From Candidatus Helarchaeota archaeon (lineage in GTDB: Archaea; Asgardarchaeota; Lokiarchaeia; Helarchaeales; RDOG01), in the NCBI GenBank assembly GCA_019058315.1, contig JAHPZH010000003.1:524451-588450 (forward strand): a DNA stretch of 64,000 bases. The letters are read 5' to 3'. The notes below the pieces were generated by a model that saw nothing but the letters and a program-made list of their open reading frames with translations, was not told where the DNA came from and made no database searches. Below, piece by piece: positions 20,166-50,502 of the stretch (the stretch's first letter is position 1; each line of letters starts with the position of its first letter). The translations under genes were made by a program, and so were the position numbers.

Positions 20166-20175
20166 AAAAATCTAT

Positions 20176-20226
20176 TTATAATCTTTTCCATTTTAATTTC
20201 CTTAAATTAGTCAATTTAACCTTCAT
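20176..20226 (-). pseudogene. Truncated remnant of the Fe-S gene start (MKVKLTNLRKLKWKRL*) at the duplication junction
   Basis: First 8 residues match the start of 17403..18608 at exactly the 1618-bp offset; the sequence diverges shortly after and stops. Confidence 0.85.
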
Positions 20227-21783
20227 ATTATCTTACTCACTATACATTCCTAAGTTATATTTTCCCGGAGAAAGGATTCCTCGTGGATCTAAAGATTGTT
20301 TAATAGTTCTCAAAAAATTAAGAAATTGTTCTGAAAATGCTCCTGTTCTTATTAAAGATCTTGAATATCTCAATCCAGTCATATATGGCATAACACCCAA
20401 TTTAATAGCAGCATCCATAAAGCTATCCCATAATTCTCCATTTAATTTTCTATATTCGGGTTTATTCCATACTATTAAACCTATAGGAAACGATATAGTT
20501 GTGTGGTCACATAAACTAATCATTCCCCCAGTTGCAGGAAAGGCCTTAACAGCTTGTAGTTTTTCACTATTTTCAAGTGTCCATTTAGATAAACCCTTTG
20601 TTAATTCTGGGTAGTTATGCATAGCTATTCTACATTCTGCTGATTGTCCGGTACTTTCTGGCCCTAATGCCCCCCATATATGATGTGAAACTTGCCAATA
20701 TTCGTTTTTATCATTATCCCATTTAAATATCTTTTTTTGGGCATCAATAGACTCAACACCTTTTTCTGCTAATGAAATCTCCTCTATTATCTTGTTATTT
20801 TCTTCTATAATATTTTCATTCTCGCCTATTAATATGTATTCTAGCATAGACCTTCCTTTTGGGTTTATAATTTTCAAATTCTCATCTAAGGGAGGGATGT
20901 CAGGGAGAATTTTAATCATGGAAGCCCGAACTAAAGAGGAATCTACGAAACCGGCTCTAAAAATCCCTAAGTATCCTTTTTTACGACAATTGAATAAAAT
21001 TTTAAGTGCTACTTCTGCGGACTTTCTTTTTAATGTAAAGGACATGTGAGCTTTGAATTTCGGCTTTGAGTAAATTTTTAAAATTGCCTCAGTTTTAATT
21101 CCCATTATTCCATTATCACCTAAAAAGATACCTAAAAGGTCAGATACGAACCCAAACCTATTAAACGGGTTTTTTACATATTTACATTCGCCAGAGCCAG
21201 TTTCTATAATATCACCATTTTTATTTGGTAATACAACCTTTAATCCTATACAATTCTTCGTTACAGGCCCATATATTGCAATACCCTCTCCATAACTATT
21301 ATTGCTCAATCCTCCTCCTACGACAGCTGACATTCCACTATTAGGCCCCACGTTTCCAGTGTAATACCCTTTTTCCATTAAGAAAGTATTTAATTCTGCC
21401 CAAGTTATTCCACATTGGACTCTAACAGTTAGATGGTCTTCATCGAGATTCAATATTTTATTCATTCTTGTTGTATCGATCACAATACCTCCAGGTTTAT
21501 ACGGGATAGCTCCTTGCTGAAGTCCAGCACCTCCACCTCTTGGAATTATTGGAATTCTCTCACTATATGCAATCTTAACAATCTCAGAGATTTCCTCTGA
21601 ATTTTCCGGGCGTACAACAAAGTCTGGGAGATTATCTTCAATAACGGAATTCATAGATCTTGAATAACTCTTTCTAATGTAATCTGCGTTAGAAACATAT
21701 TTACTACTGACAATATCTCTTAAGGAATTGAGAATATTCATATTCATCTCCTATTTATAAAAAATTTGATTTGTCAAACATTT
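20196..21783. repeat. Tandem duplication, copy B
   Basis: Near-identical to 18578..20165. Confidence 0.97.
20233..21747 (-). CDS. FAD-binding oxidoreductase, GlcD/VAO-type (copy B)
   Basis: Same motifs as copy A; about 18 aa differences, 14 of them in one patch. Confidence 0.92.
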   Translation of the reverse strand: MNMNILNSLRDIVSSKYVSNADYIRKSYSRSMNSVIEDNLPDFVVRPENSEEISEIVKIAYSERIPIIPRGGGAGLQQGAIPYKPGGIVIDTTRMNKILNLDEDHLTVRVQCGITWAELNTFLMEKGYYTGNVGPNSGMSAVVGGGLSNNSYGEGIAIYGPVTKNCIGLKVVLPNKNGDIIETGSGECKYVKNPFNRFGFVSDLLGIFLGDNGIMGIKTEAILKIYSKPKFKAHMSFTLKRKSAEVALKILFNCRKKGYLGIFRAGFVDSSLVRASMIKILPDIPPLDENLKIINPKGRSMLEYILIGENENIIEENNKIIEEISLAEKGVESIDAQKKIFKWDNDKNEYWQVSHHIWGALGPESTGQSAECRIAMHNYPELTKGLSKWTLENSEKLQAVKAFPATGGMISLCDHTTISFPIGLIVWNKPEYRKLNGELWDSFMDAAIKLGVMPYMTGLRYSRSLIRTGAFSEQFLNFLRTIKQSLDPRGILSPGKYNLGMYSE

Positions 21784-25450: not shown

Positions 25451-26116
25451 TTATTTTAATGCTTTGAAAATAGACTTTCCCATCTTAATAGCATCTTCAT
25501 CCAAAAACTTTATTTTACCCATCATATTTGCCATGAAATATATTTGAGCAGTTTTTTCTAATAACTCACAAGATAGAAATGCACGTCTCATGTTTTTTCC
25601 AAAACCTAATGAGCCGTGATTCCTAATAATTATCGCCAAGCTTGTTTTATTGATAACTTCACTGATGTGTTTTGCTAGCTCGGTTGATCCAGATCGATTA
25701 TACTCAGAGGTTATTACAATTGGATGACCTAGAAAAAAAACTTGATCATCGAGTATAGCAGGAAGAGAATCTTCGAGGACTAAGCCTATAGCTGTAGAAT
25801 AGACTGGATGATAATGAATGATAGCATTTACGTCTTTTCTAGCTTTGTAAATGGCCATATGTAAGTAAGTTTCAGATGAGGCAGTTAAATTACCTTCAAT
25901 TACCTCGAATTTTCCACTTTCGTCAGAAAAATCAATTACTAACATATCATCAATCATGTAATCTTCAATATCTTTTCCGCTGGGGGTTCCAATCATCTTG
26001 GTTCCTTTTTTTTCTGTCCTTAGTGTTAAATTTCCAGAAGAACCAAGCGTTAAACCTTTAGCAAGGAGTTTTTTTGCAGCTTCAAATACGATCTTTTTCT
26101 GTTCTTCATACAACAA
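25451..26116 (-). CDS. Class II aldolase/adducin family protein (FucA-like)
   Basis: GSSGNLT, TPSG, SSETYLH, HYHP, RNHG metal ligands. Confidence 0.92.
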   Translation of the reverse strand: MLYEEQKKIVFEAAKKLLAKGLTLGSSGNLTLRTEKKGTKMIGTPSGKDIEDYMIDDMLVIDFSDESGKFEVIEGNLTASSETYLHMAIYKARKDVNAIIHYHPVYSTAIGLVLEDSLPAILDDQVFFLGHPIVITSEYNRSGSTELAKHISEVINKTSLAIIIRNHGSLGFGKNMRRAFLSCELLEKTAQIYFMANMMGKIKFLDEDAIKMGKSIFKALK

Positions 26117-26142
26117 AATACACCCTTAAAATAAAGTACTAA

Positions 26143-27663
26143 TTATCTAATTTTAAGAAATTGATTATAGATTTTTTTCCATTTTTTGAATAATTTACGA
26201 TAGGTTTTAGTTAAAATTTTATCGGGTTTGACTGTTTTTTCTAAATGAACCATATTATTTACAGCTTCATCAAAATTTTTATAAATCCCAGCACCAATTG
26301 ATGCCAAAATTGCACTTCCTAATGCCGTTCCTTCCTTAATTTTGAATATTTTGATTGGATTTCCGAGAACATTGGTTAATATAGTTGCAAAAATATTACT
26401 TCTTGCCTGTCCTCCTGTAAGTGCAATATCTTCTTCACCAACTTTTAACCCTGAGATTTCTTCGACTTGTTCTGCATTAGCTTTAATAATATATGCCATA
26501 TTTTCTAATAGCCCTCTACAAATTTCAGCCTGAAATATTTCTGTTGAAATGATCGGTAATGGAATTAAAAATCCTCCATAGCCAATTTCTGCTAAATTTC
26601 CATAATTTGCAATGCTTCCCCCTAAATTCGCTAAAAAACCACCCGATCCTGGCGGAGCTTGCTCTGCTAATTTATCAATTTCGGGAAAATCTAGTTTAAA
26701 TATTTTTTTAAACCAGCGGAGGTTATGTCCAGTCTCTCCAGCGTCAGAGTCTATAACCCACATATTTGGAACTACATGGCAACCAGTCCAAATCCGATAA
26801 TTCATATCTATTTGTGCTTTATTTGTAACTATTTGAAAAGGAGTTGATGTTCCTGCTACAGCACAAGATTGTCCAGGTTTTATAGTTTTTGTTCCTAATA
26901 AGGCACATTGAGTGTCTGCACCACCTACGACCACTTTGATTTTTGCAGATATGCCCATTTGTTTTGCTATATCTGATTCAATTTCTTCAGCAATCAGACT
27001 TCCTGATTCTTTAAGATTGGGAGTGATTGTGTCTGGAATATCTAAAAGTTCCATCAATTCTTTTGACCATTTTCGACTATGAACATCCAAAAGCATGGAT
27101 TCACAAGCGTTTGATGGTTCCGAGACGTATTGCCCAGTCAGACGAAATAATATCCAATCATTTATCATTAGGAATTTATCTATTTTTTGATAAATTTCTG
27201 GTTTTTTATTTTTTATCCATGCCAATCTTGCAGGTACATAAATTATTGGAGGCATATGTCCTGTAATTTGTTGAATTTTTTCCTTATATTTTCCCTGCAT
27301 CTCCATGCCTTCCATAAATGCCCTAGCATCTACGTTTGGCATAGCATATAGCTCATTACCGTTCTTATCTAGAAAAACGCACCCATGGCGCATACTTGTT
27401 GATGATATAGCAACAATATCTTGATGGTTGATATTTGATTTCTTAATCGCTTGTTTGGTAAGATTGCATAAAATCTTCCAAAATATATCAGGATCGAAAT
27501 CTAGTTGGGGAACTTTATTATCACCAAAGGGTAACCAATTTTCATTATATTTCCATTCTTCAGAAGTATGTGAAATTAGTTCCCCAGTTATAGAAAAAAT
27601 TAAACAGCGTCCTGTACCTGTTCCAAAATCTAAAGTTAGTAGATATTCGGGCATTAAAACCAC
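26143..27663 (-). CDS. FGGY-family carbohydrate kinase (LsrK/xylulokinase-like)
   Basis: LDFGTGTGR, STSMRHG, GGADTQCA, TGGQARS, EGTALGSA. Confidence 0.92.
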   Translation of the reverse strand: MVLMPEYLLTLDFGTGTGRCLIFSITGELISHTSEEWKYNENWLPFGDNKVPQLDFDPDIFWKILCNLTKQAIKKSNINHQDIVAISSTSMRHGCVFLDKNGNELYAMPNVDARAFMEGMEMQGKYKEKIQQITGHMPPIIYVPARLAWIKNKKPEIYQKIDKFLMINDWILFRLTGQYVSEPSNACESMLLDVHSRKWSKELMELLDIPDTITPNLKESGSLIAEEIESDIAKQMGISAKIKVVVGGADTQCALLGTKTIKPGQSCAVAGTSTPFQIVTNKAQIDMNYRIWTGCHVVPNMWVIDSDAGETGHNLRWFKKIFKLDFPEIDKLAEQAPPGSGGFLANLGGSIANYGNLAEIGYGGFLIPLPIISTEIFQAEICRGLLENMAYIIKANAEQVEEISGLKVGEEDIALTGGQARSNIFATILTNVLGNPIKIFKIKEGTALGSAILASIGAGIYKNFDEAVNNMVHLEKTVKPDKILTKTYRKLFKKWKKIYNQFLKIR

Positions 27664-27690
27664 AAATTTTATAATCCGATAAGGATTTTT

Positions 27691-28677
27691 TTAGCTGATA
27701 TTCATTTTACGAACATTTTTAGGTATTTTACCATCCAAGAAATCTCTTATAGCTTCAAATACCATTTCTGAGTAATGTGTGACTACTTCAGCTGTTGCTC
27801 CTCCAATATGAGGTGTGGTAATTACATTATCAAGACCTTTAAATGGACTACCCCTACGACCAGTAGGCTCTATTTTATAAACATCAACAGCTGCTCCTGC
27901 AATTTTCCGATCTTTAAGTGCATTAACTAGTGCTTTTTCATCAGTTATTCTCGATCGGGCCACATTCAAAAAAAATGCTGTTGGTTTCATTAATGATATC
28001 ATATCAGCATTTATCAAACCTTTAGTCTCTTTGTTATATACTGCATGAATTGTTATAAAATCTGATTCTTTCATTAAAACAGCTAATTCAACTACTTTTG
28101 CTTCTACATCCTCCACTCTTTTAGGATTTACATAGGGATCATAAACTAAGATATTCATACCCATTGTTTTCAAAATCTTTGCTACTTTATAACCAATCGC
28201 TCCTAGACCTACTATACCTACAGTTTTACCTTCAAGTTCAATCCCTTTCGCAGTTACAACACCTTCTAGACCTTTCCATTCCCCATTTTGAACTATATTA
28301 TGGGCAAGTATTATATTTCTAGCTAAAGATATCATAAAACCAATTGTTAATTCTGCAACTGCGGTTGCATTTCGCCCAGGACAAGATGTCACCATTACAT
28401 TTGCTTTGTTTGCTGCTTCTACATCGATATTAACAGGATTACCCCGAACACAACAAATAAGTTGGAGCCCTTTAACAACTTCAAAGAAATCTTCACGTAA
28501 AACTTCCACTTCACAGATTAGAATATTAATATCTTCTTTTTCTATTTTCTCTAATAATTCATCTGAGCTATAAAGTTTGTCGTATTCAATCCAATCTTCA
28601 ACTTTAAATTCGCCAACAAGCTCTGCAATTTTTTTTTGGTAATTTGGATCTAATCTAACTGTTGAATAAGCTTTCAT
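27691..28677 (-). CDS. D-isomer-specific 2-hydroxyacid dehydrogenase (SerA-like)
   Basis: NATAVAE, GIVGLGAIG, LNVAR, DVYKIEP, TPHIGGAT. Confidence 0.93.
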   Translation of the reverse strand: MKAYSTVRLDPNYQKKIAELVGEFKVEDWIEYDKLYSSDELLEKIEKEDINILICEVEVLREDFFEVVKGLQLICCVRGNPVNIDVEAANKANVMVTSCPGRNATAVAELTIGFMISLARNIILAHNIVQNGEWKGLEGVVTAKGIELEGKTVGIVGLGAIGYKVAKILKTMGMNILVYDPYVNPKRVEDVEAKVVELAVLMKESDFITIHAVYNKETKGLINADMISLMKPTAFFLNVARSRITDEKALVNALKDRKIAGAAVDVYKIEPTGRRGSPFKGLDNVITTPHIGGATAEVVTHYSEMVFEAIRDFLDGKIPKNVRKMNIS

Positions 28678-30128: not shown

Positions 30129-31781
30129 TTATGGAAGTGGAGGATCAATTGTGATATCTTTATTATAACTAACTTTATATCCATATTTTATTTTAAATTC
30201 TTGTTCTGGTGCTAATTTCAGCTCAAATGTAGCTACACTTAGTATAAACTTGTCAGGTATCGGTTTAAAATAATCATCTAAATGTTTTTCATCAGGTTCA
30301 ACAATAATATCGGGAGAACGGCTGTGTGGAATCCGGTCATTTATAGTTATTTCGCTCTCTTTCTTTCGATAATTATTGATTTTAATTTCATATCCATATT
30401 CATTCGTTAATTTTCCTTTAATTATCCCTTTTTTGCCAACTTCCCTTTTAACCAATTTTTTTTCCACTTTCATTTCATATGAACGTCGAGCACCTAGTTT
30501 GAATTCCTCACCTGGAGAAATCACTTTAATGTTAGTTTCGCCGATGAAATCCCCATCAACGTAGCATTTGCATTTACCAGGAAGTAATGTGCTTTCCCCA
30601 TTTTTAATTTTTTCTTGAGCAATTAGTTGCTGGTCCATACTGTTCCAGTAGAATAGTCTAGTTGAAGTTACATCAATTTCCTGAAGCAAAACTGGGTGTT
30701 TTGAACCATCTGCCTTAATATCCATTTTCTTTTTTATTTTGTAAATTTGCACACCAAATCCACTTTCAGAAAAAGCAGCTTGTTCTACCTTCATTTCAAC
30801 TTCTTTTTTCTTTTCTTCTATTTCCATGCCTTCATAATCCATCAATTCTTCTTCTGTTGCTTTCTCTAATTCCCTGACAGCCTCAGAGCGCTCTCTCCCC
30901 TTTTCCTTGTCCCTTCTGGGTGCGGGAGGATAATAAACTCTCTCTTGTATATACCAAGGTTGAGGTTCTATTATTCTAACAGGTTTAAAAGTTGCTGTTG
31001 ATACTTCTAAGTTGATATCAATCCAATCTTCTAATGTTTTATTCACGATTTCCGCTCTATAGTTGATTTTTGTTTCATTCTCACTTATTAGAACATCATA
31101 GCTTGGTGTCCAAAAGGCTCCACGAATCTGATATGTAACATTCAAATCAAAAGTTCCTGCACTTTCTGCTTCAATCGAAATCACAATATCATAATATTCT
31201 TCGACTTTTTGGGCTAAACCACCAAATTTTTGAATTTCCCTTCTCACTTTCTCAATTTCTAAATTCTTATTTTCAATTTTTTCAGCCAACTCAAACAATT
31301 TTTTCTGTGTGTTTGAAATTGTTTCATTAGAATAGGTTTGCATGTCTTTTAATCCTTGTAGGCTTGTCTCTCCCGCTGCAAAAAATTTCGGAAATTCAGC
31401 AGAGAATTTATTTAAAACGTTTGAAAAATTGTTTTTAACCCATTGAAAGTGTTGCAATTCTTCCTTTAATGAATTCAATTCTTTTTGAAGTTGTTTTAAT
31501 TTCTCTTGTAACTCATCAAGCTCTTTCTTACCCGTAACTTCTTTATATATATAATTAACCTCAACATCAATAAGGGTTGCCTTGATACCTTTTCCAGTTC
31601 CTTTCACTCGAACGCTATCACTATCTAAAAATTTCGAAATTGCACCAATTTTTATTATATTTACTCCGGGTTCTAGCGATATTTCGGCAATATTTTTACG
31701 TGTAACACGTGCCCCATCTAAAAAGATTACAGCATTTGATATTTTTGTGTCAATACCTTTAATTTCAGACATAATTTTCAC
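30129..31781 (-). CDS. DUF4140/DUF4139 (mucoidy inhibitor MuiA-like) protein, paralog 1
   Basis: AVIFLDGARVTR, coiled coil, AFWTPSYD, LLPGKCKCYVDGDFIG, DRIPHS. Confidence 0.9.
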   Translation of the reverse strand: MKIMSEIKGIDTKISNAVIFLDGARVTRKNIAEISLEPGVNIIKIGAISKFLDSDSVRVKGTGKGIKATLIDVEVNYIYKEVTGKKELDELQEKLKQLQKELNSLKEELQHFQWVKNNFSNVLNKFSAEFPKFFAAGETSLQGLKDMQTYSNETISNTQKKLFELAEKIENKNLEIEKVRREIQKFGGLAQKVEEYYDIVISIEAESAGTFDLNVTYQIRGAFWTPSYDVLISENETKINYRAEIVNKTLEDWIDINLEVSTATFKPVRIIEPQPWYIQERVYYPPAPRRDKEKGRERSEAVRELEKATEEELMDYEGMEIEEKKKEVEMKVEQAAFSESGFGVQIYKIKKKMDIKADGSKHPVLLQEIDVTSTRLFYWNSMDQQLIAQEKIKNGESTLLPGKCKCYVDGDFIGETNIKVISPGEEFKLGARRSYEMKVEKKLVKREVGKKGIIKGKLTNEYGYEIKINNYRKKESEITINDRIPHSRSPDIIVEPDEKHLDDYFKPIPDKFILSVATFELKLAPEQEFKIKYGYKVSYNKDITIDPPLP

Positions 31782-31808
31782 TTCAATTTTAGTTTACTAA
31801 TTTTATAT

Positions 31809-33479
31809 TTATGGAAGGGGTGGATCTACAACAATATCTTTCTTATAATTTACTTTATATTCATATTTAATCTTGAATTCTTCTTCTGGTTTCAATTTAA
31901 GCTCGTAGGTAGCGATACCTAATTGAAATTTAGTAGGAACTGGGAAAAAGAAATCATCTAAACGTTTTTCTTCTTTTTGCTCCGGATCAACATCAATTTC
32001 TACAGAACGGCTATGAGGAATTCTATCAATAATAGTTATATCACTTTCTTTTTTGCGATAATTATTGATTTTAATTTCATATCCATATTCATTAGTTAAT
32101 TTACCTTTCATTATACCTTTCTTTCCAACTTCCCTTTTAGTCAACTTTTTCTCTACTTTCATTTCATAGGAACGCCTAGCCCCTAATTTGAACTCTTCTC
32201 CAGGAGAGATTACTTTAATACTAGTTTCACCTACGAAATCACCATCGACGTAGCACTTACATTTGCCAGGTAATAGAGTGGAATCTCCATTTTTGATCTT
32301 TTCTTGTGCCACTAGTTGTTGATCTATTGAATTCCAATAGAATAGTCTAGTCGATGTCACTTCAATTTCTTGAAGTAAAACAGGATGTTTAGATCCATCT
32401 GCTTTAATATCCATCTTTTTAGCGATCTTGTAATGTTGTACTCCAAAACTATCTTCAGAAAATGCAGCTTGTTCTATTTTCATTTCAACGGGTTCCGGTT
32501 CTGGTTCGGCTAGCTCAGTAGTCAGATCATCCATTTTTGCTGGTTCTCTTTTCATTTTTTTACTAACTTTAGCCATTGCACGTCCAGTAGCTGGACCACC
32601 CGCATAATAGTCATAAGGTTGATATTCTTGGATATACCAAGGCGCAGGTTCTATAATTCTTACCGGTTTAAATGTTGCTGTGGAAATCTCCAAATCTATA
32701 TCTTCCCAATCTTCTAATGTTTTATTAACAACATCTGCTCGATAATTAATCATCGTTTCAGTTTCACTAATTAACACATCATAACTTGGCGTCCAAGAAG
32801 CACCTCGAATTTGATACATAATGTTTAATTGGAAAGCTCCCGCACTTTCTGCTTCTATAGTAACTAGAACATCGTAATATTCTTCAACTCTTTGAGCTTG
32901 ACCACCAAGTTTTTGAATTTCATAATTCACTTTATCAATTTCTATTGAATTTTTTTCAATTGTTTCATCCAATTCAGCCATTTTTCTTTGCATTTCCAAA
33001 ATATTTTCAGTTGAATATGTATGCATATCTTTTAGATTTTGTAGTTCTGACTCCCCTGCAGCGAAGAATTTCGGAAATTCTGCTGTGAAATTATTTACAA
33101 TATTCTTGAAATTCTCTTGATTAATGGATAGATGGTTTTTTTCTTCATTTAATGCTGTCCTATCTTTTTGAAGTTGCTTTAATTTATCTTGTAATTCATC
33201 TAACTCTTTTAATCCTGTTACTTCTTTATAAACATAGTTTACTTCAACGTCTACTAATGTTGCTGTTATACCTTTTCCGGATCCCCTTACACGGACACTA
33301 TCTTTTTCTAAAAATTTTGAAATTTGACCGACTTTTAGTATATTTATGCCTTTATCTATAGAAATCTCCTCGCTCATACGAGTAACTCTTGCACCATCAA
33401 GGAAAACGACAGCACCTATGATATCAGTCTTAATCTCTTGACTATCATCCTTTACTTGATTTTCTGCCATATTTTTCAC
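31809..33479 (-). CDS. DUF4140/DUF4139 (MuiA-like) protein, paralog 2
   Basis: Same motifs; close tandem paralog ending DPPLP. Confidence 0.9.
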   Translation of the reverse strand: MKNMAENQVKDDSQEIKTDIIGAVVFLDGARVTRMSEEISIDKGINILKVGQISKFLEKDSVRVRGSGKGITATLVDVEVNYVYKEVTGLKELDELQDKLKQLQKDRTALNEEKNHLSINQENFKNIVNNFTAEFPKFFAAGESELQNLKDMHTYSTENILEMQRKMAELDETIEKNSIEIDKVNYEIQKLGGQAQRVEEYYDVLVTIEAESAGAFQLNIMYQIRGASWTPSYDVLISETETMINYRADVVNKTLEDWEDIDLEISTATFKPVRIIEPAPWYIQEYQPYDYYAGGPATGRAMAKVSKKMKREPAKMDDLTTELAEPEPEPVEMKIEQAAFSEDSFGVQHYKIAKKMDIKADGSKHPVLLQEIEVTSTRLFYWNSIDQQLVAQEKIKNGDSTLLPGKCKCYVDGDFVGETSIKVISPGEEFKLGARRSYEMKVEKKLTKREVGKKGIMKGKLTNEYGYEIKINNYRKKESDITIIDRIPHSRSVEIDVDPEQKEEKRLDDFFFPVPTKFQLGIATYELKLKPEEEFKIKYEYKVNYKKDIVVDPPLP

Positions 33480-43264: not shown

Positions 43265-44212
43265 TCAGACTAATAAATTGTCCACTGCTAATTTTGTAGC
43301 AATTCTTCCAAATGCTTTGTTTACATTAGTCCCATCTTTCGCTGAAGTTAGCATGAAATTAAACCCCAGTGAATCTCCCAGTTTCTTAGCTTCCATCATC
43401 TTTACTTGTCTATCAGGAAGATCTATTTTGTTTCCTATTAATAAACATTTGATTTTCTGCTTTTTTAGATCTCCAAGTTCTGATTCAACATCCTTTACCC
43501 AATCTGTAATATTTTCGAATGTTTCTTTCCTTGAAACGTCAAAAACAAAAAGGATTGCTTGTGTACCCCTATAATAATTTTTCCTGACTTTTCGGAAATA
43601 TTTTTGTCCCGCAACATCAAAAATACTAAATTTTATTTCTACATTTTCAAATAAATTGTAAGATTTTGTCATTATATTGACGCCTATAGTAGATATATAA
43701 TCTGAATCAAATTTATGCTCTACAAATTGACGAACAAGACTGGTCTTTCCAACTGCTCCATCCCCAATCATGATTAATTTAAATGTAAATCGGGTTGGTT
43801 CTAATTTTTCTAATTCGGGTAATTCAACAGAAATATCACGTTTTTCCAGATCTAATATTTGAGCTGCTTTTTCAGCTACGATATATGAATATGGGAGAAT
43901 ATCCGATGATTCAGCATCCTCGGAAGCCAGGGTTACGAGTACGTTCTTTCCACACTGGGTAAATAGGAATAATCCTTGCTCAGTCTCTATTTGTGCTCCA
44001 TAATGTCCTGTAACGCTGAACTCTCTCTTGATCCGCTCGGAAGCCATGCCGAATGATGCAGAGACTGCACCTACTACGTCTTCGTCCATTGATTCATCCA
44101 TTTTACTACCAATAACGAGTCCTTCGGGGTCAATAATGGCTGCCGCGATTATTTCTTTACTATGAGACACATAATTTTTTAGCAACTCAGTAATTTTTTC
44201 TGGTGTACTCAT
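43265..44212 (-). CDS. Roadblock/LC7 - Rab-like small GTPase fusion (copy 3)
   Basis: AAAIIDPEGLVIGS Roadblock; GDGAVGKTS, YISTIGV, FDVAGQ, GNKID, LTSAK; shares ILP(Y/W)xYIVAEK with copies 1 and 2. Confidence 0.93.
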   Translation of the reverse strand: MSTPEKITELLKNYVSHSKEIIAAAIIDPEGLVIGSKMDESMDEDVVGAVSASFGMASERIKREFSVTGHYGAQIETEQGLFLFTQCGKNVLVTLASEDAESSDILPYSYIVAEKAAQILDLEKRDISVELPELEKLEPTRFTFKLIMIGDGAVGKTSLVRQFVEHKFDSDYISTIGVNIMTKSYNLFENVEIKFSIFDVAGQKYFRKVRKNYYRGTQAILFVFDVSRKETFENITDWVKDVESELGDLKKQKIKCLLIGNKIDLPDRQVKMMEAKKLGDSLGFNFMLTSAKDGTNVNKAFGRIATKLAVDNLLV

Positions 44213-44369
44213 TTTTGCAAACTCTCTTTTGCTAATTTTTATTTGTAGACATAATTATAATTTTTTTATTAAAAAAATTTCTTCTTTAATCGATATATAT
44301 ATTTAACACCAGAAAATATAATATATAAATTATTTTTCAAGAACAATTGACTTTTAGAGCGAAATTAAA

Positions 44370-45326
44370 ATGGAATCATTAAAAAATTCAATATTTCCTT
44401 CCAGAACATTACCTTATTTAGATATAGCTAGAACTTATCAAATTTCTACAAGATTCCTTAAGGAAGATGGAAATTATCAAGATTGGGTTAAAATAGGACC
44501 TCAAGAAACTTATGAATTCCCCGAGCTCAAAGGCCCCGCATGTATTAGAGTATTTTGGATAACTATATCCCCTTCTATGTATAATATTATGAAAGTAATG
44601 AGTTATAAAGATTTACGCATACTTCGACAAATAGCTATAAAAATTAGATATGACGGAGAATCAAAATCGTCAGTTAAGGTTCCGATTGGAAATTTTTTTG
44701 GTACTACTTTTGGTAAATATAAACATTATTGTTCAAAATACCTTGGAACAACAAGTGGTGGGTATCACAGTTTTTTTCCAATTCCATTTAGAAAATCTTG
44801 TAAATTTTTAGTAAAAAATTATTCCACTACCGAAACTATCAAATTATTCGGCCATATTGAATACCAAAAACTAACGTTTTTTCCAGATAATGTAGGATAC
44901 TTTCATGCAAAATTTGTTCAAAAACGTCCTAAAATAGGAGAGCCATTCGAAGTATTGTCTGTTGATGGAAAAGGAATATATGTAGGAACTAGTATGGGTA
45001 TGAGAGGAAGTAATTTAAATATACCATTGTTTTTCTTAGAAGGAAATATTGATATATGTGTAGATGGAGAGAAATGTTTCCATTATACAGGAACTGAGGA
45101 TTACTTTTTAAGTGGATGGTATTTTGTTACCGGCGAATTCCACGATGAATATCATGGATGCACCATAAAAAGTTGGAAAAAAGGAGGAATTGTATCTGCT
45201 TATAGGTTTCATGAACCACCAATAAGTTTTAATAAAAATTTTAAATTATTAGCACATCATGGTGAACGTGATGAGATAAGATCTAATTATCAGAGCGTCG
45301 CTTATTTTTATTTGGAGAGAAAATAA
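44370..45326 (+). CDS. DUF2961 / glycoside hydrolase family 172-like protein (no signal peptide)
   Basis: GPACIRVFWIT, VPIGNFFG, FPIPFRKS, YFHA, LEGN and YTGTEDYF (two candidate catalytic Glu), SAYRFH, YQSVAYFY. Confidence 0.85.
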   Translation: MESLKNSIFPSRTLPYLDIARTYQISTRFLKEDGNYQDWVKIGPQETYEFPELKGPACIRVFWITISPSMYNIMKVMSYKDLRILRQIAIKIRYDGESKSSVKVPIGNFFGTTFGKYKHYCSKYLGTTSGGYHSFFPIPFRKSCKFLVKNYSTTETIKLFGHIEYQKLTFFPDNVGYFHAKFVQKRPKIGEPFEVLSVDGKGIYVGTSMGMRGSNLNIPLFFLEGNIDICVDGEKCFHYTGTEDYFLSGWYFVTGEFHDEYHGCTIKSWKKGGIVSAYRFHEPPISFNKNFKLLAHHGERDEIRSNYQSVAYFYLERK

Positions 45327-45327
45327 T

Positions 45328-46545
45328 ATGAAAAGTATATATTTAGCACTAGGATCAGAAATAGATCCTGAAAAATATTTAATTTGTAAATTCTATTTCG
45401 AATCTCAACTATCGGATGAGGAAGCTGCCGAAAGTATTGCAGCAGAAAGCTCTATAGGTACTTGGACAGACGTCCAGACCATGAAAGAAGAAATTAAAAA
45501 TAGATTAGCTGCAAAAGTATTTAAACTTGAGAAAAATATCATGCATATCGCATATCCCCTTGAAATGTTTGAAATTTCAGTTCCGCAGCTTCTAGCTGAT
45601 ATTGCTGGAAACATTTTTGGCATTAAATTTGTTGATAATCTTCGTTTATTAGAAGTAAAATTTCCTTCAAAATATATTAAGTCGTTTAAAGGTCCTCGTT
45701 TTGGTATAGAAGGAGTTCGAAAACTGCTTAAAATCAAAGAAAGACCACTTGTTGGAACGATAATCAAACCAAAAATCGGTTTATCAGCAGATGAGCATGC
45801 ACGAGTTGCATATGAAGCATGGGTTGGTGGTTGTGATTTCGTAAAAGATGATGAGAATTTAACTAATCAAGGTTTTAATCCTTTTAAAGAACGAGTAGAG
45901 AAGACTTTAAAATCTTTGGATAAAGCTGAAACTAAAACGGGTGAAAAGAAAAATTATGCACCAAATATTTCTGCTCCTTACAGTGAAATGATTGAAAGAG
46001 CCCAATTTGTTAAAGATAATGGAGGAAAATGTATTATGATAGATATACTTACTTGTGGCTTTTCTGCTCTACAAAGCATTGGAGAAGAAAATTTTGGTAT
46101 GGTGATTCATGGTCATAGGACTATGCATGGAGCGATAACGAGAAATGAGAAACACGGAATTCATATGAATGTTTTAGCTCAATTATCTCGATTTTGTGGC
46201 ATAGATCAACTTCATATTGGGACAATTGTTGGTAAAATGTCAGGCGATAAAGAAGAAGTATTGAAAAATGTAGAAGCATGCATTTATAAATGTGGACTAA
46301 AATCTGCTTTTCCTGTTTGTTCTGGCGGACTGTATGCAGGTCATATACCGCCCCTCATGGAAATTCTAGGAAAAAATATAATAATACAAGCGGGAGGAGG
46401 AGTTCATGGTCATACTAAGGGAACATCGGCAGGAGCAACATCAATGAGACAAGCGGTAGATGCAGTAATGGATGGGATTCCAATTGAAGAATTTATTAAA
46501 ACTCATGAAGAATTAAGACTAGCCCTGAAGAAATGGAAGAGGTAA
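45328..46545 (+). CDS. rbcL: Ribulose-1,5-bisphosphate carboxylase, form III
   Basis: AESSIGTW, GNIFG, GTIIKPK, DFVKDDE, HGHR, QLHIGT..GKM, SGG, QAGGGVHGH: full catalytic set. Confidence 0.96.
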   Translation: MKSIYLALGSEIDPEKYLICKFYFESQLSDEEAAESIAAESSIGTWTDVQTMKEEIKNRLAAKVFKLEKNIMHIAYPLEMFEISVPQLLADIAGNIFGIKFVDNLRLLEVKFPSKYIKSFKGPRFGIEGVRKLLKIKERPLVGTIIKPKIGLSADEHARVAYEAWVGGCDFVKDDENLTNQGFNPFKERVEKTLKSLDKAETKTGEKKNYAPNISAPYSEMIERAQFVKDNGGKCIMIDILTCGFSALQSIGEENFGMVIHGHRTMHGAITRNEKHGIHMNVLAQLSRFCGIDQLHIGTIVGKMSGDKEEVLKNVEACIYKCGLKSAFPVCSGGLYAGHIPPLMEILGKNIIIQAGGGVHGHTKGTSAGATSMRQAVDAVMDGIPIEEFIKTHEELRLALKKWKR

Positions 46546-47987
46546 AACCTTTGTTATTTGGGGGAATTGATGTTGGAACAACAGGAGTAAAGGTAATAAT
46601 ATCTGATGATCAGGGAAATGTTATTTCTTCTATTTCACACGATTTTAAATTCCCTAAAGTTACACTTCCGGATGGTTATTCAGAACAAAATCCAAAAATT
46701 TGGTGGGATGAACTAAAATCAACCTTGAAATTAACTATAAGAGATTTAGAGGGGAAATTTTTATTTGCATCTGATATTAAAGCCATTTCTGTTGACTCTA
46801 CATCCGGAACGATTATTCCTATTGGTAGAAATTTTGAACCTCTCCACAATGCTCTAATGTATAATGATTCTAGAGCTGTTAAAGAAGCTAAACAAATCAA
46901 CGAAGTTAGTCGAGATTTTTATTTAAAATTTAAACCTTCTTTCGCTCTTTCTAAAATCCTCTGGTTTAGGGAAAATAAACCTAAAATATATTTAAACACT
47001 TATAAGTTTGTCCATGCAGCAGATTATCTAGTCGGTATGTTAACAGATAATTTTACAATTTCTGATAGTTCTAATAGTCTGAAGACGGGTTATGACATAA
47101 TTCAAAAACGATGGCCGCCTTTTCTTGAAGATTTAGAAATAGAAGTGGATAGATTACCAGAAATAGTCCAACCTGGTCAAAAAATTGGAGAGATTTCAAA
47201 GAAATGCGCAGAAGAAACAGGATTATCGACTGCAACGACTGTTGTTGCTGGAGTTACAGATAGTACAGCTGGTGTTATTGCATCAGGTGCAGTGAATCCA
47301 GGAGATATTTTTAATGTAATAGGAACAACTTTGGTGGAACGAGCAGTTACTAAGAAGTTAGTAATTGATAAGAAAGGTCGAATATATTGTCATCAATTAC
47401 CAACTGGAAATTTTCTTCCGGGTGGTGCAAGTAATGTAGGGGGAGAAGTTCTAAAAAAATATTTTCCAAATGATAATTTGAAAGTGATGGATAGGAAATC
47501 AACTGAATATAAGCCATCCAATTTAATTATATATCCTTTAGCTAGAAAAGGAGAACGATTACCTTTCATAAATCCGGCAGCAGAAAGTTTTGTTGTTGGA
47601 CAACCAAAGGATAAATATCACCTTTTTACAGGTTGTCTGGAAGCAGTGGCATATGTGGAAAGGTGGATACTCGAAATTCTTAAAGATTTAGGTGCAAAAC
47701 TTGGAACAACGGTATATTCAGCTGGTGGGGGGGCGTATTCTAATGAATGGTGTCAAATCAGAGCAGATGTATTAAATAGAATAATCAGAAGACCTATGAT
47801 TGTTGAAGCTGCAATGGGAACTGCAATATTAGCGTCCACATATACCTTTTATAAGGATTTAGGCAAAGCAACAAAAAATATGGTTCATTATAAAGATCAT
47901 TTTGAACCTATTCCAGAAATGAAGAAAAAATATGATATAATTTATGATAAATTTAGATCCGAATGCAATAAACGTAATTATACTTAA
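46533..47987 (+). CDS. FGGY-family pentulose kinase (D-ribulokinase-like)
   Basis: GIDVGTTG, VDSTSGT, LMYNDSRA, HAADY, SDSSNSLKTGYD, GVTDSTA, GGASNVGG, AGGG; overlaps rbcL by 13 nt. Confidence 0.88.
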   Translation: MEEVKPLLFGGIDVGTTGVKVIISDDQGNVISSISHDFKFPKVTLPDGYSEQNPKIWWDELKSTLKLTIRDLEGKFLFASDIKAISVDSTSGTIIPIGRNFEPLHNALMYNDSRAVKEAKQINEVSRDFYLKFKPSFALSKILWFRENKPKIYLNTYKFVHAADYLVGMLTDNFTISDSSNSLKTGYDIIQKRWPPFLEDLEIEVDRLPEIVQPGQKIGEISKKCAEETGLSTATTVVAGVTDSTAGVIASGAVNPGDIFNVIGTTLVERAVTKKLVIDKKGRIYCHQLPTGNFLPGGASNVGGEVLKKYFPNDNLKVMDRKSTEYKPSNLIIYPLARKGERLPFINPAAESFVVGQPKDKYHLFTGCLEAVAYVERWILEILKDLGAKLGTTVYSAGGGAYSNEWCQIRADVLNRIIRRPMIVEAAMGTAILASTYTFYKDLGKATKNMVHYKDHFEPIPEMKKKYDIIYDKFRSECNKRNYT

Positions 47988-48135: not shown

Positions 48136-50502
48136 ATGGAGACATATAAGTTGCCCAAAAAATTAAAATTTTTAATTATTATAGGTTTAATATTGCCATT
48201 TTTTCTATTATTTTGTTCTAATGGACCAAATTTCTATAATATTCCATTTCCTATACAAACTAATACTGCACCTAGTTTAATTAGTATGAGTTTTGAAAGG
48301 GATAATTACACAGGTTCATATAATGGCAATGCTTCGCTAATGTATACCGATTGGGGATTTGATTGGTCAACTTGGGTGGTAGACAATTACAGTGAAAATT
48401 TAATTGACCCAAATATAACCATAAATAATTATGTATATGATGTAAATTATATTGATGTCTATGCTTATTGGCTTTTTAATGGCTTTAGCAGTCATATAAT
48501 TGAAGATAATTTAACAGCAGAATCAAATGTTACTAGTTCTATTTCATTCGCACAAGGGTTTACATCACCCGAATTATTATCAATTGATGAATTATCACTA
48601 TATTTAAATTATAGCTTACCAGGTAGTGAGTTATATAGGTTTGAAGTTACAATATATGATGAAAATTTACAGGATATAATTGATTATAATGAAACTTGGG
48701 ATAATAGACAAAATGTGGCTGAATGGTATACATTTGGATTTTCTAATAATATTTTAGAGGCTGGAAAGAATTATAGCATAGTCCTCACTATATGGTTTGA
48801 TTCAAGTCAAAATTATAATTCAACTAATTTTTGGAAGACTGCTAATCACAGTGTTTCAGCAGATCAAGGCATTTCAATGGTTCATGATGGAAATATTTGG
48901 ACCCAATTACCAAATGATAATGAAACAGATTTTCTTTGTCAATTTAGTTATGTACAATTAATTGATCCTGCAGAAGTGGATTTAAAATTTATTATAGAAG
49001 ATCAAGTTTGTATTCCAAACTATCGCAAAGGTTTATATTCTGTTGGATATGAAGCATTTTATTCCTATAATTTTGTTACTCCACCAGACCATACTATTAA
49101 TATTACAGCAATTGCGAATCAATCTGTTAATTTCGCTTATATAGATATTTATCCAAGATATGTACATTTGATAAATATAACAGGAACGTTCAATACTAGT
49201 GGAAACCAAATCAATTGGAACATTCAGTATCCATATAGAGATATTAGTCTAGATCAAACATTAGATTTCTTTATGTTTGAAAACGATTGGACCTTAGAGC
49301 ATTTCTATAACCCGAGTAATGGGGAATTTGAAGATTTATTTTTTGGATCTATTAAATTATGGAATGATACATATAATGGTATAATTGATATTTGGGGATT
49401 TCCTCTTGAACAAGACATATTTACGGGAATCTACCAGTCGTCTAACTATTTTAATAGATTTTCCACAAAGATGAAACTAGCAAATGGTAGTTATATAGGT
49501 GTTGCATCCTTTCAAATAGATCAGACAATTAGGCTTGAGGCCAAATTAGTAGATTCGAATAATCAACCATTATCAGGTGGAATAGGACACATCGAATTGA
49601 TTTCTCCATTAGGGACAGTGGTTTATAATGGTACTGGTTTAAATGCAAATAATGGCACCATAAACAGTTCTGACATTCTACTTTCAAATATAGGTTCAGG
49701 GGTTTATACTATTAACTTTTTTTGGACAAATGGAAGAAAAGTTGCATACTCTTCAACCCTTATTGAAATAAGAAAAGCACCCTCTCCTCCTATTTTTTTC
49801 CCCACTAGTGAAGATAACCCTGAAACGTTAATCCTAATCATAGCTCTAATAATTGCTGCAGTAGCAACCCCAGTAGCTCTAGTAGTTCGAAGACAACTTC
49901 AATTAAGAGATTGGGAAAAATCTTGTCGTTATTTATTTATTTTATCTAAAAATGGAGTAAGTATGTATAGCCATTCGTTTGGAATTGAATTTCAAGACCC
50001 TTTATTGATTTCTGGTATGATCTCTGCAATTAGCTCGTTTATAATAGAAGTTACAGGTAGCAAAAAACCCCTTAGAACTATCGATCAAGAGGATAAGAAA
50101 ATTCTATTATCTCATGGACAATATACAATTTCTGCACTAGTTGCAGACAAGTCTCTTTCTGTAATGTATAAACATTTAGAAACCTTCCATGTAGAATTTG
50201 AAAAGACATATAGATCTTTAATTAAGGATTGGAATGGCGATACCACTATTTTCAAAGGTACCGAAAAAATTATTGACAAATACTTCCCTATGGATATGGA
50301 AGAAAAGATAATACGTGGTGTGAAAAGGAAACTCATTGAGTTCACGGAAAGAGTTACTACTATCACTGATCCACTGGACGTAATCTCGATCTTCCGTGAA
50401 ATAACTGAATTTAGTTCGAAATATCAAGTAATCATTAATAAACATTATTTAAAACAGTATGGTGAATTGCTAAAAATCGCCGAGGAAAAAATACAAAGTT
50501 AA
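48136..50502 (+). CDS. Large cell-surface protein: N-terminal TM/signal, beta-rich extracellular region, TM, cytoplasmic longin-like domain
   Basis: Many N-x-S/T sequons; Pro-rich linker then TM LILIIALIIAAVATPVALVVRR; YLFILSKNGVSMY...DPLLISGMISAISSFIIEV. Confidence 0.85.
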   Translation: METYKLPKKLKFLIIIGLILPFFLLFCSNGPNFYNIPFPIQTNTAPSLISMSFERDNYTGSYNGNASLMYTDWGFDWSTWVVDNYSENLIDPNITINNYVYDVNYIDVYAYWLFNGFSSHIIEDNLTAESNVTSSISFAQGFTSPELLSIDELSLYLNYSLPGSELYRFEVTIYDENLQDIIDYNETWDNRQNVAEWYTFGFSNNILEAGKNYSIVLTIWFDSSQNYNSTNFWKTANHSVSADQGISMVHDGNIWTQLPNDNETDFLCQFSYVQLIDPAEVDLKFIIEDQVCIPNYRKGLYSVGYEAFYSYNFVTPPDHTINITAIANQSVNFAYIDIYPRYVHLINITGTFNTSGNQINWNIQYPYRDISLDQTLDFFMFENDWTLEHFYNPSNGEFEDLFFGSIKLWNDTYNGIIDIWGFPLEQDIFTGIYQSSNYFNRFSTKMKLANGSYIGVASFQIDQTIRLEAKLVDSNNQPLSGGIGHIELISPLGTVVYNGTGLNANNGTINSSDILLSNIGSGVYTINFFWTNGRKVAYSSTLIEIRKAPSPPIFFPTSEDNPETLILIIALIIAAVATPVALVVRRQLQLRDWEKSCRYLFILSKNGVSMYSHSFGIEFQDPLLISGMISAISSFIIEVTGSKKPLRTIDQEDKKILLSHGQYTISALVADKSLSVMYKHLETFHVEFEKTYRSLIKDWNGDTTIFKGTEKIIDKYFPMDMEEKIIRGVKRKLIEFTERVTTITDPLDVISIFREITEFSSKYQVIINKHYLKQYGELLKIAEEKIQS

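What the first reader, a model, noticed from the sequence alone, without database searches (positions are those of the whole stretch)
44370..47987. GH172 glycosidase - form III Rubisco - ribulokinase-like kinase operon: candidate new sugar-fed route to RuBP
Seen: three genes are tightly coupled (1-nt gap, 13-nt overlap). The Rubisco keeps all catalytic motifs (KPK, KDDE, HR, H, K, SGG, GGG). The DUF2961 protein has no signal peptide and keeps two acidic motifs (LEGN, GTEDY). No AMP phosphorylase, ribose-1,5-bisphosphate isomerase or phosphoribulokinase is in the window. Known: archaeal form III Rubisco is normally fed by nucleoside salvage (AMP phosphorylase + R15P isomerase) or by PRK. Characterised GH172 enzymes act on alpha-D-arabinofuranosyl/fructofuranosyl linkages. 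The kinase motifs (D-x-TS-x-T, LMYND, SD-xx-N-x-LK-x-GYD) recall the cyanobacterial/plant D-ribulose kinase subgroup of FGGY kinases, which phosphorylate C5. Inference: furanoside-derived D-arabinose/D-ribulose is funnelled to RuBP and carboxylated. The kinase might make Ru5P, or make RuBP directly from ribulose-1-phosphate, bypassing PRK.
Basis: partly seen in the sequence, partly recalled or inferred. Interest (0 to 1): 0.88.

Follow-up and report, generated by a model that had tools for sequence, protein, structure and literature searches.

The report
Glycosidase-Rubisco-sugar kinase operon in Asgard
In one small clade of Asgard archaea the only true Rubisco gene sits in a tight three-gene operon between a cytoplasmic furanosidase and a ribulose-type sugar kinase, so Rubisco probably burns free five-carbon sugars there, most likely through known steps rather than a new reaction.

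Summary
Window 44370-47987 encodes a GH172/DUF2961 protein, a form III Rubisco with every catalytic residue, and an FGGY kinase. The gaps are a 1-nt gap and a 13-nt overlap.

The kinase's nearest solved relatives are the D-ribulose-stimulated SePSK/AtXK-1 kinases. All seven database orthologues of the GH172 and kinase (at least 69% identity) that lie on long enough contigs flank a Rubisco, although their outer neighbours differ.

The arrangement is confined to this narrow clade. In 45 of 57 other Lokiarchaeia genomes Rubisco lies within 400 bp of a ribose-1,5-bisphosphate isomerase, and none has GH172 or this kinase nearby.

The window's genome still encodes the canonical AMP phosphorylase and R15P isomerase elsewhere. 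It also has RpiA, PRPP synthetase and a FucI-family isomerase. No PRK, transaldolase or convincing transketolase was found.

Best reading (about 0.5): a D-arabinofuranoside/pentulose module, with a published bacterial precedent, has been welded to Rubisco. Rubisco is the only evident exit from the pentose-phosphate pool. The direct "kinase makes RuBP" idea is not excluded but has no support (about 0.1).

Earlier scan notes describe GH172+FucI+pentulokinase loci in bacteria, none with Rubisco. I class this as a new variant of a known kind, of moderate interest.

The parts
44213..44369 (.). A/T-rich 157-nt intergenic region shared with the divergent Roadblock-Ras GTPase gene. It is the likely promoter region of the operon.
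   Evidence: Sequence read. It is the only sizeable non-coding gap before the three genes. No promoter program for archaea was run.
44370..45326 (+). GH172 (DUF2961) double-jelly-roll glycosidase, 318 aa. It has no signal peptide and is the shortest of five paralogues in the genome.
   Evidence: Pfam PF11175 at 2.5e-55. PDB hits 4KQ7, 7V1V and 8IC8. E224/E243 catalytic pair and F221, D244, W250, F160 in the -1 subsite. Orthologues at 69-89% identity occur only in triad loci.
45328..46545 (+). Form III Rubisco large subunit, 405 aa. It is the only form III copy in the genome.
   Evidence: TIGR03326 at 516 bits, above the 497 cut-off. P. horikoshii and T. kodakarensis Rubisco at 4e-114 and 2e-106, with all catalytic residues. 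The second family member in the genome is an MtnW-like form IV protein.
46533..47987 (+). FGGY carbohydrate kinase of the SePSK/AtXK-1 (D-ribulose-binding) subgroup, 484 aa.
   Evidence: Pfam FGGY_N and FGGY_C. Below every NCBIfam equivalog cut-off; the best is XylB at 223 bits against 380. PDB 5HTN at 1e-50. D13, T16 and D243 match SePSK D8, T11 and D221.

Best explanation
This is a lineage-specific catabolic operon of a narrow Lokiarchaeia-class (Helarchaeales-like) Asgard clade.

Proposed mechanism:
1. A cytoplasmic retaining GH172 furanosidase releases a furanose, most likely D-arabinose, from imported small glycosides.
2. A FucI-family isomerase encoded elsewhere converts it to D-ribulose.
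3. The SePSK-type FGGY kinase phosphorylates the pentulose at C5 to ribulose 5-phosphate.
4. The genome shows no PRK, no transaldolase and no convincing transketolase. The pentose phosphate therefore leaves the pool through the known archaeal pentose bisphosphate route: RpiA, PRPP synthetase, a phosphoribosyltransferase, AMP/NMP phosphorylase and R15P isomerase, all encoded elsewhere.
5. The operon's Rubisco splits RuBP plus CO2 into two 3-phosphoglycerate.

Shown here: gene identities, catalytic residues, operon structure, its conservation, and the presence or absence of the other pathway genes.

Inferred: the substrates of the GH172, the kinase and the isomerase, co-transcription, and the flux from Ru5P to RuBP.
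For: (1) Tight coupling is kept in 8 lineages. GH172-Rubisco junctions run from a 4-nt overlap to a 1-nt gap where the gene calls are reliable, and Rubisco-kinase junctions from a 13-nt overlap to a 14-nt gap. The outer neighbours differ: radical SAM, a 785-aa membrane protein, a second FGGY, or a Macro-domain gene.

(2) In a 5.8-billion-protein library, identity falls from at least 69% straight to 50% for the kinase and 44% for the GH172. All 7 orthologues of each that lie on contigs long enough are in such a locus.

(3) The kinase is nearest to SePSK, whose ATPase is stimulated by D-ribulose and whose catalytic Asp221 contacts O4/O5 of bound D-ribulose. The catalytic residues are conserved.

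(4) The GH172 keeps its catalytic pair and the -1 subsite of an alpha-D-Araf/Fruf-ase.

(5) There is a published precedent. The Microbacterium D-arabinan locus has intracellular GH172 plus isomerase plus kinase, giving D-arabinose to Ru5P (PMC10509167).

(6) A FucI-family isomerase was found in G000 and in none of 60 relatives. An 87% orthologue with the same neighbour lies in the metagenome that holds triad contigs L054 and L056.

(7) In a 94%-complete genome, PRK, transaldolase and real transketolase were not found. RpiA, PRPP synthetase, an AMP phosphorylase homologue (4GA4 at 1e-105) and an R15P isomerase homologue (3A11 at 7e-57, with the THCHS and GADS motifs kept) are present.

Against: - The clade is narrow (Rubisco 81-93% identical), so conservation may partly reflect shared descent.
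- The isomerase, any transporter and all steps between Ru5P and RuBP are outside the operon.
- The route through PRPP and NMP is long and costly in ATP.
- Rubisco already has a complete canonical supply line, so the sugar link is not required.
- Bacterial homologues of the kinase (about 50% identity) have no GH172 or Rubisco neighbours.
- The same-order homologue in G006 is followed by a class II aldolase/epimerase-family gene. That hints at a different sugar or a ketose-1-phosphate product in that family.
- In L083 the full GH172 is inverted, so co-transcription of all three genes is not obligatory.
- The FucI-family protein scores far below the L-fucose isomerase cut-off (131 bits against 775), so its substrate is unknown.
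Confidence: 0.5

Rival explanations
1. There is no metabolic link. GH172 plus kinase form an ordinary sugar-salvage module whose product, Ru5P, goes to R5P for nucleotide synthesis. Rubisco works only in AMP/NMP salvage. The order persists because the clade is young, or because the genes merely share a promoter.
For: The arrangement is absent from 57 other Lokiarchaeia Rubisco loci and from the same-family genome G001. The canonical AMP phosphorylase and R15P isomerase are intact elsewhere. The upstream Roadblock-Ras gene is also syntenic in five of the seven other loci (L052-L056), which shows general residual synteny. In L083 the GH172 is inverted.
Against: Both outer borders have been rearranged repeatedly while the Rubisco-kinase pair is never split, and the junctions stay at 14 nt or less. 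The GH172 and kinase subfamilies are known only from this locus. In this family the usual isomerase partner of Rubisco has been displaced. Without transketolase or transaldolase, Ru5P made in excess has no other evident exit.
Confidence: 0.28
2. A new RuBP-forming step that bypasses PRK and perhaps the isomerase. Three versions are possible:
- The FGGY kinase phosphorylates C5 of a pentose or pentulose 1-phosphate, either ribulose 1-phosphate to RuBP or ribose 1-phosphate to R15P.
- The kinase and the neighbouring RhaB-like FGGY kinase together convert D-ribulose to RuBP by C5 plus C1 phosphorylation.
- The GH172 acts as a retaining phosphorylase that yields an alpha-furanose 1-phosphate.
For: No PRK was found. 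The kinase start overlaps the end of the Rubisco gene. A rhamnulokinase-like FGGY (a C1-kinase type, 490 bits against a 528 cut-off) plus a HAD phosphatase lie next to the triad in L054, L055 and L084, near it in L083, and directly after Rubisco in G001. No RhaA was found in the genome. PMC9700705 notes that unidentified R1P kinases may hide among archaeal sugar kinases. An MtnA-type isomerase is present.
Against: To my knowledge no FGGY kinase is known to take a phosphorylated sugar. The substrate-site motifs match a free-D-ribulose binder. The RhaB-like kinase occurs in 20 of 61 relatives, away from Rubisco, and in the window's genome it lies 70 kb from the triad. The canonical supply genes are retained.
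Confidence: 0.12
3. Salvage or repair role. The kinase re-phosphorylates D-ribulose that arises when phosphatases act on Ru5P or RuBP, which keeps the Rubisco substrate pool intact. The GH172 is an unrelated passenger.
For: The SePSK/AtXK-1 family has no assigned physiological role and was characterised in a cyanobacterium and a plant; that these are Rubisco-bearing organisms is background knowledge. A HAD phosphatase is a recurrent neighbour in this family.
Against: It does not explain the strict co-occurrence with a dedicated GH172 subfamily or the lineage-specific FucI-family isomerase. The closest homologues of the kinase come from bacterial phyla in which no Rubisco lay within the 7 kb examined on each side.
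Confidence: 0.06

Closest known systems
Archaeal pentose bisphosphate (AMP/nucleoside) pathway of Thermococcus kodakarensis: AMP phosphorylase, R15P isomerase, form III Rubisco
   Same: Same Rubisco form with all catalytic residues. Homologues of AMP phosphorylase and R15P isomerase are in the genome. [quoted passage not shown]
   Different: Here Rubisco is not next to the isomerase, as it is in 45 of 57 Lokiarchaeia relatives. It lies between a glycosidase and a free-sugar kinase, which implies an entry from free sugars rather than from nucleotides.
D-arabinan utilisation locus of Microbacterium arabinogalactanolyticum (intracellular GH172 ExoMA1 + isomerase + kinase; PMC10509167)
   Same: A cytoplasmic GH172 without signal peptide is clustered with a sugar kinase. 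The proposed flow is D-arabinose to D-ribulose to Ru5P.
   Different: No endo-arabinanase or ABC transporter was recognised among the annotated neighbours, and DUF4185 was not found in the genome, although that search's control rang nowhere. The isomerase lies elsewhere. Whether the kinase subfamily is the same was not tested. Rubisco is inserted between the two genes.
SePSK (Synechococcus elongatus PCC 7942) and AtXK-1 (Arabidopsis), ribulokinase-like FGGY kinases (PDB 5HTN, 5HTR; PMC4880283)
   Same: Best structural-database relatives. Catalytic Asp/Thr/Asp and the sugar-site motifs are conserved.
   Different: The match is only 176 bits over about 425 residues. The nearest sequence relatives (about 50% identity) are uncharacterised bacterial proteins. 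The physiological role of SePSK itself is unknown.
Reductive hexulose-phosphate pathway of methanogens (archaeal PRK + form III Rubisco; PMC5241800)
   Same: A form III Rubisco fed from ribulose 5-phosphate.
   Different: No PRK (PF00485) was found in the genome.
Non-carboxylating pentose bisphosphate pathway of haloarchaea (R1P kinase, R15P isomerase, RuBP 5-phosphatase, Ru1P aldolase; PMC9700705)
   Same: A HAD phosphatase and class II aldolases are present in the genome. The neighbouring HAD has a weak hit to the RuBP 5-phosphatase model (51.6 bits against a 330 cut-off).
   Different: All scores are far below the cut-offs, and Rubisco is present and intact.

Membership tests
Form III Rubisco (TIGR03326) | Score over the curated equivalog cut-off | tested here: met
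   516 bits against 497.45
Form III Rubisco (TIGR03326) | Complete set of carboxylase active-site residues (spinach K175, K177, K201, D203, E204, H294, R295, H298, H327, K334, S379, G380/381, G403/404; N-domain E60, T65, W66, N123) | tested here: met
   K147, K149, K173, D175, E176, H263, R264, H267, H296, K303, S332, G333/334, G356-358, E40, T45, W46, N95. The mapping to spinach numbering rests on my own knowledge.
Form III Rubisco (TIGR03326) | RuBP carboxylase activity | not testable with these tools
   Needs an enzyme assay.
Glycoside hydrolase family 172 (DUF2961) | Full DUF2961/GH172 double-jelly-roll domain | tested here: met
   PF11175 at 188 bits covering profile positions 1-234 of 235. 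Orthologues carry GH172_1st, GH172_dom and GH172_2nd.
Glycoside hydrolase family 172 (DUF2961) | Catalytic acid/base and nucleophile glutamates about 20 residues apart, plus the -1 subsite (alphaFFase1 W267, E270, E291, D292, W298, Y187') | tested here: met
   F221, E224, E243, D244, W250, F160. The Y187F mutant of alphaFFase1 keeps 90% activity.
Glycoside hydrolase family 172 (DUF2961) | Trimer-based oligomer that completes the active site between protomers | not tested
   No complex prediction was run.
Glycoside hydrolase family 172 (DUF2961) | Hydrolysis of alpha-D-arabinofuranosyl or alpha-D-fructofuranosyl linkages | not testable with these tools
   Needs an enzyme assay.
FGGY kinases, SePSK/AtXK-1 ribulokinase-like subgroup | FGGY_N and FGGY_C domains with the catalytic residues (SePSK D8, T11, D221) | tested here: met
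   Pfam at 1e-37 and 1.6e-18. D13, T16 and D243 are conserved.
FGGY kinases, SePSK/AtXK-1 ribulokinase-like subgroup | Closer to SePSK/AtXK-1 than to other characterised FGGY kinases | tested here: met
   5HTN at 176 bits and 5HTR at 168 bits, against XylB 2ITM at 103 bits.
FGGY kinases, SePSK/AtXK-1 ribulokinase-like subgroup | D-ribulose-dependent kinase activity | not testable with these tools
   Needs an assay. Even SePSK is known only from D-ribulose-stimulated ATP hydrolysis.
Xylulokinase XylB / L-ribulokinase / FGGY pentulose kinase equivalogs (TIGR01312, TIGR01234, TIGR01315) | Score over the curated cut-off | tested here: not met
   223 bits against 380, 97 against 583, and 89 against 409.
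Pentose bisphosphate pathway (genome level) | AMP/NMP phosphorylase present | tested here: met
   L047:7220-8473. TIGR02645 scores 470 bits, above its 435 cut-off. TIGR03327 scores 504 bits, below 535, because the N-terminal 84 positions are missing. Best PDB hit is Tk AMPpase 4GA4 at 1e-105.
Pentose bisphosphate pathway (genome level) | Ribose-1,5-bisphosphate isomerase present | tested here: inconclusive
   L048:6877-7815 scores 267 bits, below the 314 cut-off of TIGR00511. Even so, the best PDB hits are the Tk and Pyrococcus R15P isomerases (7e-57), the THCHS and GADS motifs are kept, and its orthologues sit next to Rubisco in 45 of 57 relatives.
PRK-dependent routes (CBB cycle, methanogen RHP pathway) | Phosphoribulokinase (PF00485) present | tested here: not met
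   No match in the genome, which is 94% complete. The control rang in 11 of 14 genomes.
D-arabinofuranoside utilisation locus (GH172 + isomerase + kinase) | Aldose-ketose isomerase in the same cluster | tested here: not met
   The only FucI-family gene is on another contig (C2:246735-248228).

The most novel reading that the evidence does not exclude
The operon encodes a PRK-independent way of making Rubisco's substrate from a free or glycoside-derived pentose. An FGGY kinase would phosphorylate a pentose or pentulose 1-phosphate at C5. Alternatively the SePSK-type and RhaB-type FGGY kinases would act in series on D-ribulose, giving RuBP or R15P directly. The GH172 might even act as a retaining phosphorylase. 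This would be a third, unrecognised supply line for form III Rubisco.
Probability: 0.1. Interest if true: 0.85.

Novelty: new variant of a known kind. Interest (0 to 1): 0.55.

Why it matters
What feeds form III Rubisco in non-autotrophic archaea is usually answered with "nucleotides". This locus is genomic evidence that in one Asgard clade the same enzyme has been wired to free-sugar catabolism. A dedicated cytoplasmic furanosidase and a pentulokinase have taken the place that the R15P isomerase gene holds in most relatives.

It offers a concrete, clonable three-gene system for three tests:
- whether Rubisco serves as the general exit for pentoses in organisms without transketolase and transaldolase;
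- what the enigmatic SePSK/AtXK-1 kinase family really does;
- what a cytoplasmic archaeal GH172 cleaves.

If the kinase turned out to make a bisphosphate directly, it would add a new route to RuBP.

Tried and rejected
- **Expression data.** No RNA holder is listed for the stretch. Only sediment-metagenome DNA runs hold it.
- **Neighbourhoods of bacterial kinase homologues.** P0017, P0033 and P0081 have no GH172 or Rubisco nearby.
- **Neighbourhoods of the nearest GH172 paralogues (41-44% identity).** They lie in tandem GH172 arrays with a GH2 gene or in unrelated contexts, without Rubisco.
- **A GH172 paralogue 2.4 kb from an e2b2 gene on C3.** It looked like a GH172-isomerase link. Its neighbours are a sulfatase, an HGSNAT-like acyltransferase and a carboxylesterase, so I dropped it as a glycan-degradation context.
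- **The RhaB-like kinase as a Rubisco partner.** It is widespread in relatives, away from Rubisco, and it lies 70 kb from the triad in the window's genome. It is kept only as part of the low-probability novel case.
- **Origin of the kinase.** The tree gives a solid triad clade but an unresolved backbone, so no donor can be named.
- **DUF4185 endo-arabinanase.** No match, but the control rang nowhere, so this is uninformative.
- **Not run.** No structure or complex prediction was run, because no binding claim is made.


Full report
**Observation**

The three ORFs are at the stated coordinates on the + strand.
- GH172/DUF2961, 44370-45326: Pfam 2.5e-55.
- Rubisco, 45328-46545: both Rubisco domains. 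The NCBIfam type III equivalog scores 516 bits against a cut-off of 497.
- FGGY kinase, 46533-47987: both FGGY domains. The best NCBIfam model is XylB at 223 bits, far below its 380 cut-off.

The junctions were read directly. The GH172 stop is followed by one base and then the Rubisco ATG, with GGAGAG 8 nt upstream. The kinase ATG lies 13 nt inside the end of the Rubisco gene.

Aligned to the P. horikoshii and T. kodakarensis enzymes (4e-114 and 2e-106), the Rubisco keeps every active-site residue.

The GH172 aligns with the three solved family members. The published -1 subsite of alphaFFase1 is W267, E270 (acid/base), E291 (nucleophile), D292, W298 and Y187' (PMC8605356). It maps to F221, E224, E243, D244, W250 and F160. 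The Y187F mutant of alphaFFase1 is active, so the Phe is a tolerated replacement.

The kinase's best solved relatives are SePSK (5HTN, 1e-50) and AtXK-1 (5HTR, 3e-48), well ahead of E. coli XylB (1e-28). The ATPase of SePSK is stimulated by D-ribulose, and its catalytic Asp221 contacts O4/O5 of bound D-ribulose (PMC4880283). The equivalents D13, T16 and D243 are present.

**How far the arrangement is conserved**

Searches of a 5.8-billion-protein library found seven orthologues of the kinase (69-88% identity) and seven of the GH172 (69-89%). Identity then drops sharply to 50% and 44% respectively.

Every orthologue on a contig of sufficient length lies in the same arrangement with a Rubisco between them: L052, L053, L054, L055/L056 and L084. 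Junctions there are 14 nt or less.

In L083 the Rubisco-kinase pair is intact with the same 13-nt overlap. The full GH172 is inverted, and a 69-aa GH172 C-terminal remnant sits just upstream of Rubisco.

The outer neighbours differ between loci: a radical-SAM gene, a 785-aa membrane protein, a second FGGY kinase plus a HAD phosphatase, or a Macro-domain gene. Rearrangements have therefore reached both borders without splitting the core.

The Rubiscos of these loci are 81-93% identical to the window's. They form one clade (support 88/85), sister (90/87) to the Rubisco of the same-family genome G001.

**What relatives do instead**

None of 57 other Lokiarchaeia Rubisco loci has a GH172 or this kinase nearby. 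G001 has no orthologue of either gene anywhere (best hits 41% and 33%).

In 45 of the 57 loci the gene within 400 bp of Rubisco is the orthologue (45-52% identity) of the window genome's R15P isomerase. It is either convergent with a 14-33 nt gap or co-directional just upstream. The co-directional form occurs in all four same-order genomes examined. Three more loci have the isomerase within 1.5 kb.

In the window's family this classical pairing is broken. The isomerase stands alone on another contig, and the upstream slot is occupied by the GH172.

In G001 the Rubisco is followed by a rhamnulokinase-like FGGY kinase, split over three frames, and then a HAD hydrolase. The same pair is adjacent to the triad in L054, L055 and L084 and near it in L083. 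In the window's genome it lies 70 kb away. That kinase occurs in 20 of 61 relatives, away from Rubisco. Its proximity in this family is therefore weak evidence of function.

**Rest of the pathway in this genome (5.8 Mb, 12 contigs, 94% complete)**

Present elsewhere in the genome:
- An AMP phosphorylase homologue. It passes TIGR02645 and its best PDB hit is T. kodakarensis AMPpase at 1e-105. It lacks the N-terminal ~84 residues.
- An R15P isomerase homologue. Its best PDB hits are the T. kodakarensis and Pyrococcus isomerases at 7e-57, and it keeps the THCHS and GADS motifs.
- A clear MtnA, and a form IV MtnW-like Rubisco-like protein.
- RpiA and PRPP synthetase.

Not found:
- PRK.
- Transaldolase.
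- Transketolase, beyond a 21.7-bit fragment.
- L-rhamnose isomerase.

A FucI-family isomerase is present. It scores 131 bits, far below the L-fucose isomerase cut-off of 775. It was found in none of the 60 relatives. An 87%-identical copy with the same methyltransferase neighbour lies in the metagenome that also holds triad contigs L054 and L056. Otherwise this isomerase family is about 70% identical across Bathyarchaeia and several bacterial phyla.

**Interpretation**

The GH172-plus-kinase logic has a published precedent. The D-arabinan locus of Microbacterium arabinogalactanolyticum holds an intracellular GH172 without signal sequence together with an isomerase and a kinase. The proposed flow there is D-arabinose to D-ribulose 5-phosphate (PMC10509167). 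Earlier notes of this scan describe similar GH172+FucI+pentulokinase loci in bacteria, none with Rubisco.

[quoted passage not shown] It adds that most Lokiarchaeota carry these genes (PMC9700705).

Putting these together, the most economical reading is that a furanoside/pentulose salvage module has been fused to the organism's only form III Rubisco. Rubisco is the only evident exit from the pentose-phosphate pool. The intermediate steps (RpiA, PRPP synthetase, phosphoribosyltransferase, NMP phosphorylase, R15P isomerase) are known enzymes encoded elsewhere. I put this at about 0.5.

It is an inference. Substrates, co-transcription and flux are untested. The clade is narrow. The isomerase and any transporter lie outside the operon.

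**Rivals**

- No metabolic link (0.28): residual synteny or a shared promoter only.
- A direct new RuBP- or R15P-forming kinase step, possibly with the RhaB-like kinase or a phosphorolytic GH172 (0.12). It is attractive because PRK is missing and unidentified R1P kinases are expected in archaea. Nothing computed here supports it, and the canonical supply genes are retained.
- A salvage/repair role for the kinase (0.06).

One observation cuts against a simple D-ribulose-5-kinase reading. The 46%-identical homologue in the same-order genome G006 is followed by a class II aldolase/epimerase-family gene. The substrate or regiochemistry may therefore differ within this kinase family.

**Verdict**

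The finding is a new variant of known systems: the pentose bisphosphate pathway with a GH172/pentulokinase entry. It is of moderate interest and is readily testable by enzyme assays.

Noticed in passing
L016-L042 and L091-L118 (relatives' Rubisco loci): In 45 of 57 Lokiarchaeia genomes the R15P isomerase gene lies within 400 bp of the form III Rubisco gene. It is either convergent (14-33 nt gap) or co-directional just upstream. This is a strong conserved pairing that the window's family has lost.
   Followed up: yes
window 25451-28677 (- strand): A second sugar module: a class II aldolase (fuculose-1-P or ribulose-1-P aldolase-like, below cut-offs), an LsrK/XylB-like FGGY kinase, and a D-2-hydroxyacid dehydrogenase. 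Upstream are an acyl-CoA ligase and two GlcD-like FAD oxidases (18615-21747).
   Followed up: partly
window 43265-44212 (- strand): A Roadblock/LC7 domain fused to a Ras/Rab-like GTPase, divergent from the operon. The same gene is the upstream neighbour in L052, L053, L055 and L056, and on the other strand in L054.
   Followed up: partly
L083:581-1911: In the lineage whose kinase is closest to the window's (88%), the full GH172 is inverted and only 71% identical. A 69-aa GH172 C-terminal fragment remains directly upstream of Rubisco. This suggests replacement or inversion of the original copy.
   Followed up: partly
L014:2722-4179 (G001): The rhamnulokinase-like FGGY gene that follows Rubisco in the same-family genome is spread over three reading frames. 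It is either a pseudogene or an assembly error.
   Followed up: no
L047:7220-8473 (G000:C11:375225-376469): The AMP phosphorylase homologue is 417 aa and lacks the N-terminal ~84-residue domain of the T. kodakarensis enzyme. In that respect it resembles the truncated crystal construct 4GA4.
   Followed up: partly
L054:5079-5708: A Macro-domain (ADP-ribose-binding type) gene sits directly upstream of the GH172 and co-directional with it in one triad lineage. It could hint at a ribofuranosyl (ADP-ribose-derived) substrate.
   Followed up: no
L062:6886-12793: Another Asgard contig carries three GH172 genes in tandem followed by a GH2 gene. The window's genome has five GH172 paralogues, so the family is expanded in this group.
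   Followed up: partly
window 48136-50502: A 788-aa protein with no Pfam match, an N-terminal hydrophobic segment and one later transmembrane segment lies downstream of the kinase. A 785-aa counterpart follows the triad in L053.
   Followed up: no
window 30129-33479 (- strand): Two adjacent paralogues of the MuiA family (TIGR02231, about 250 bits each).
   Followed up: no
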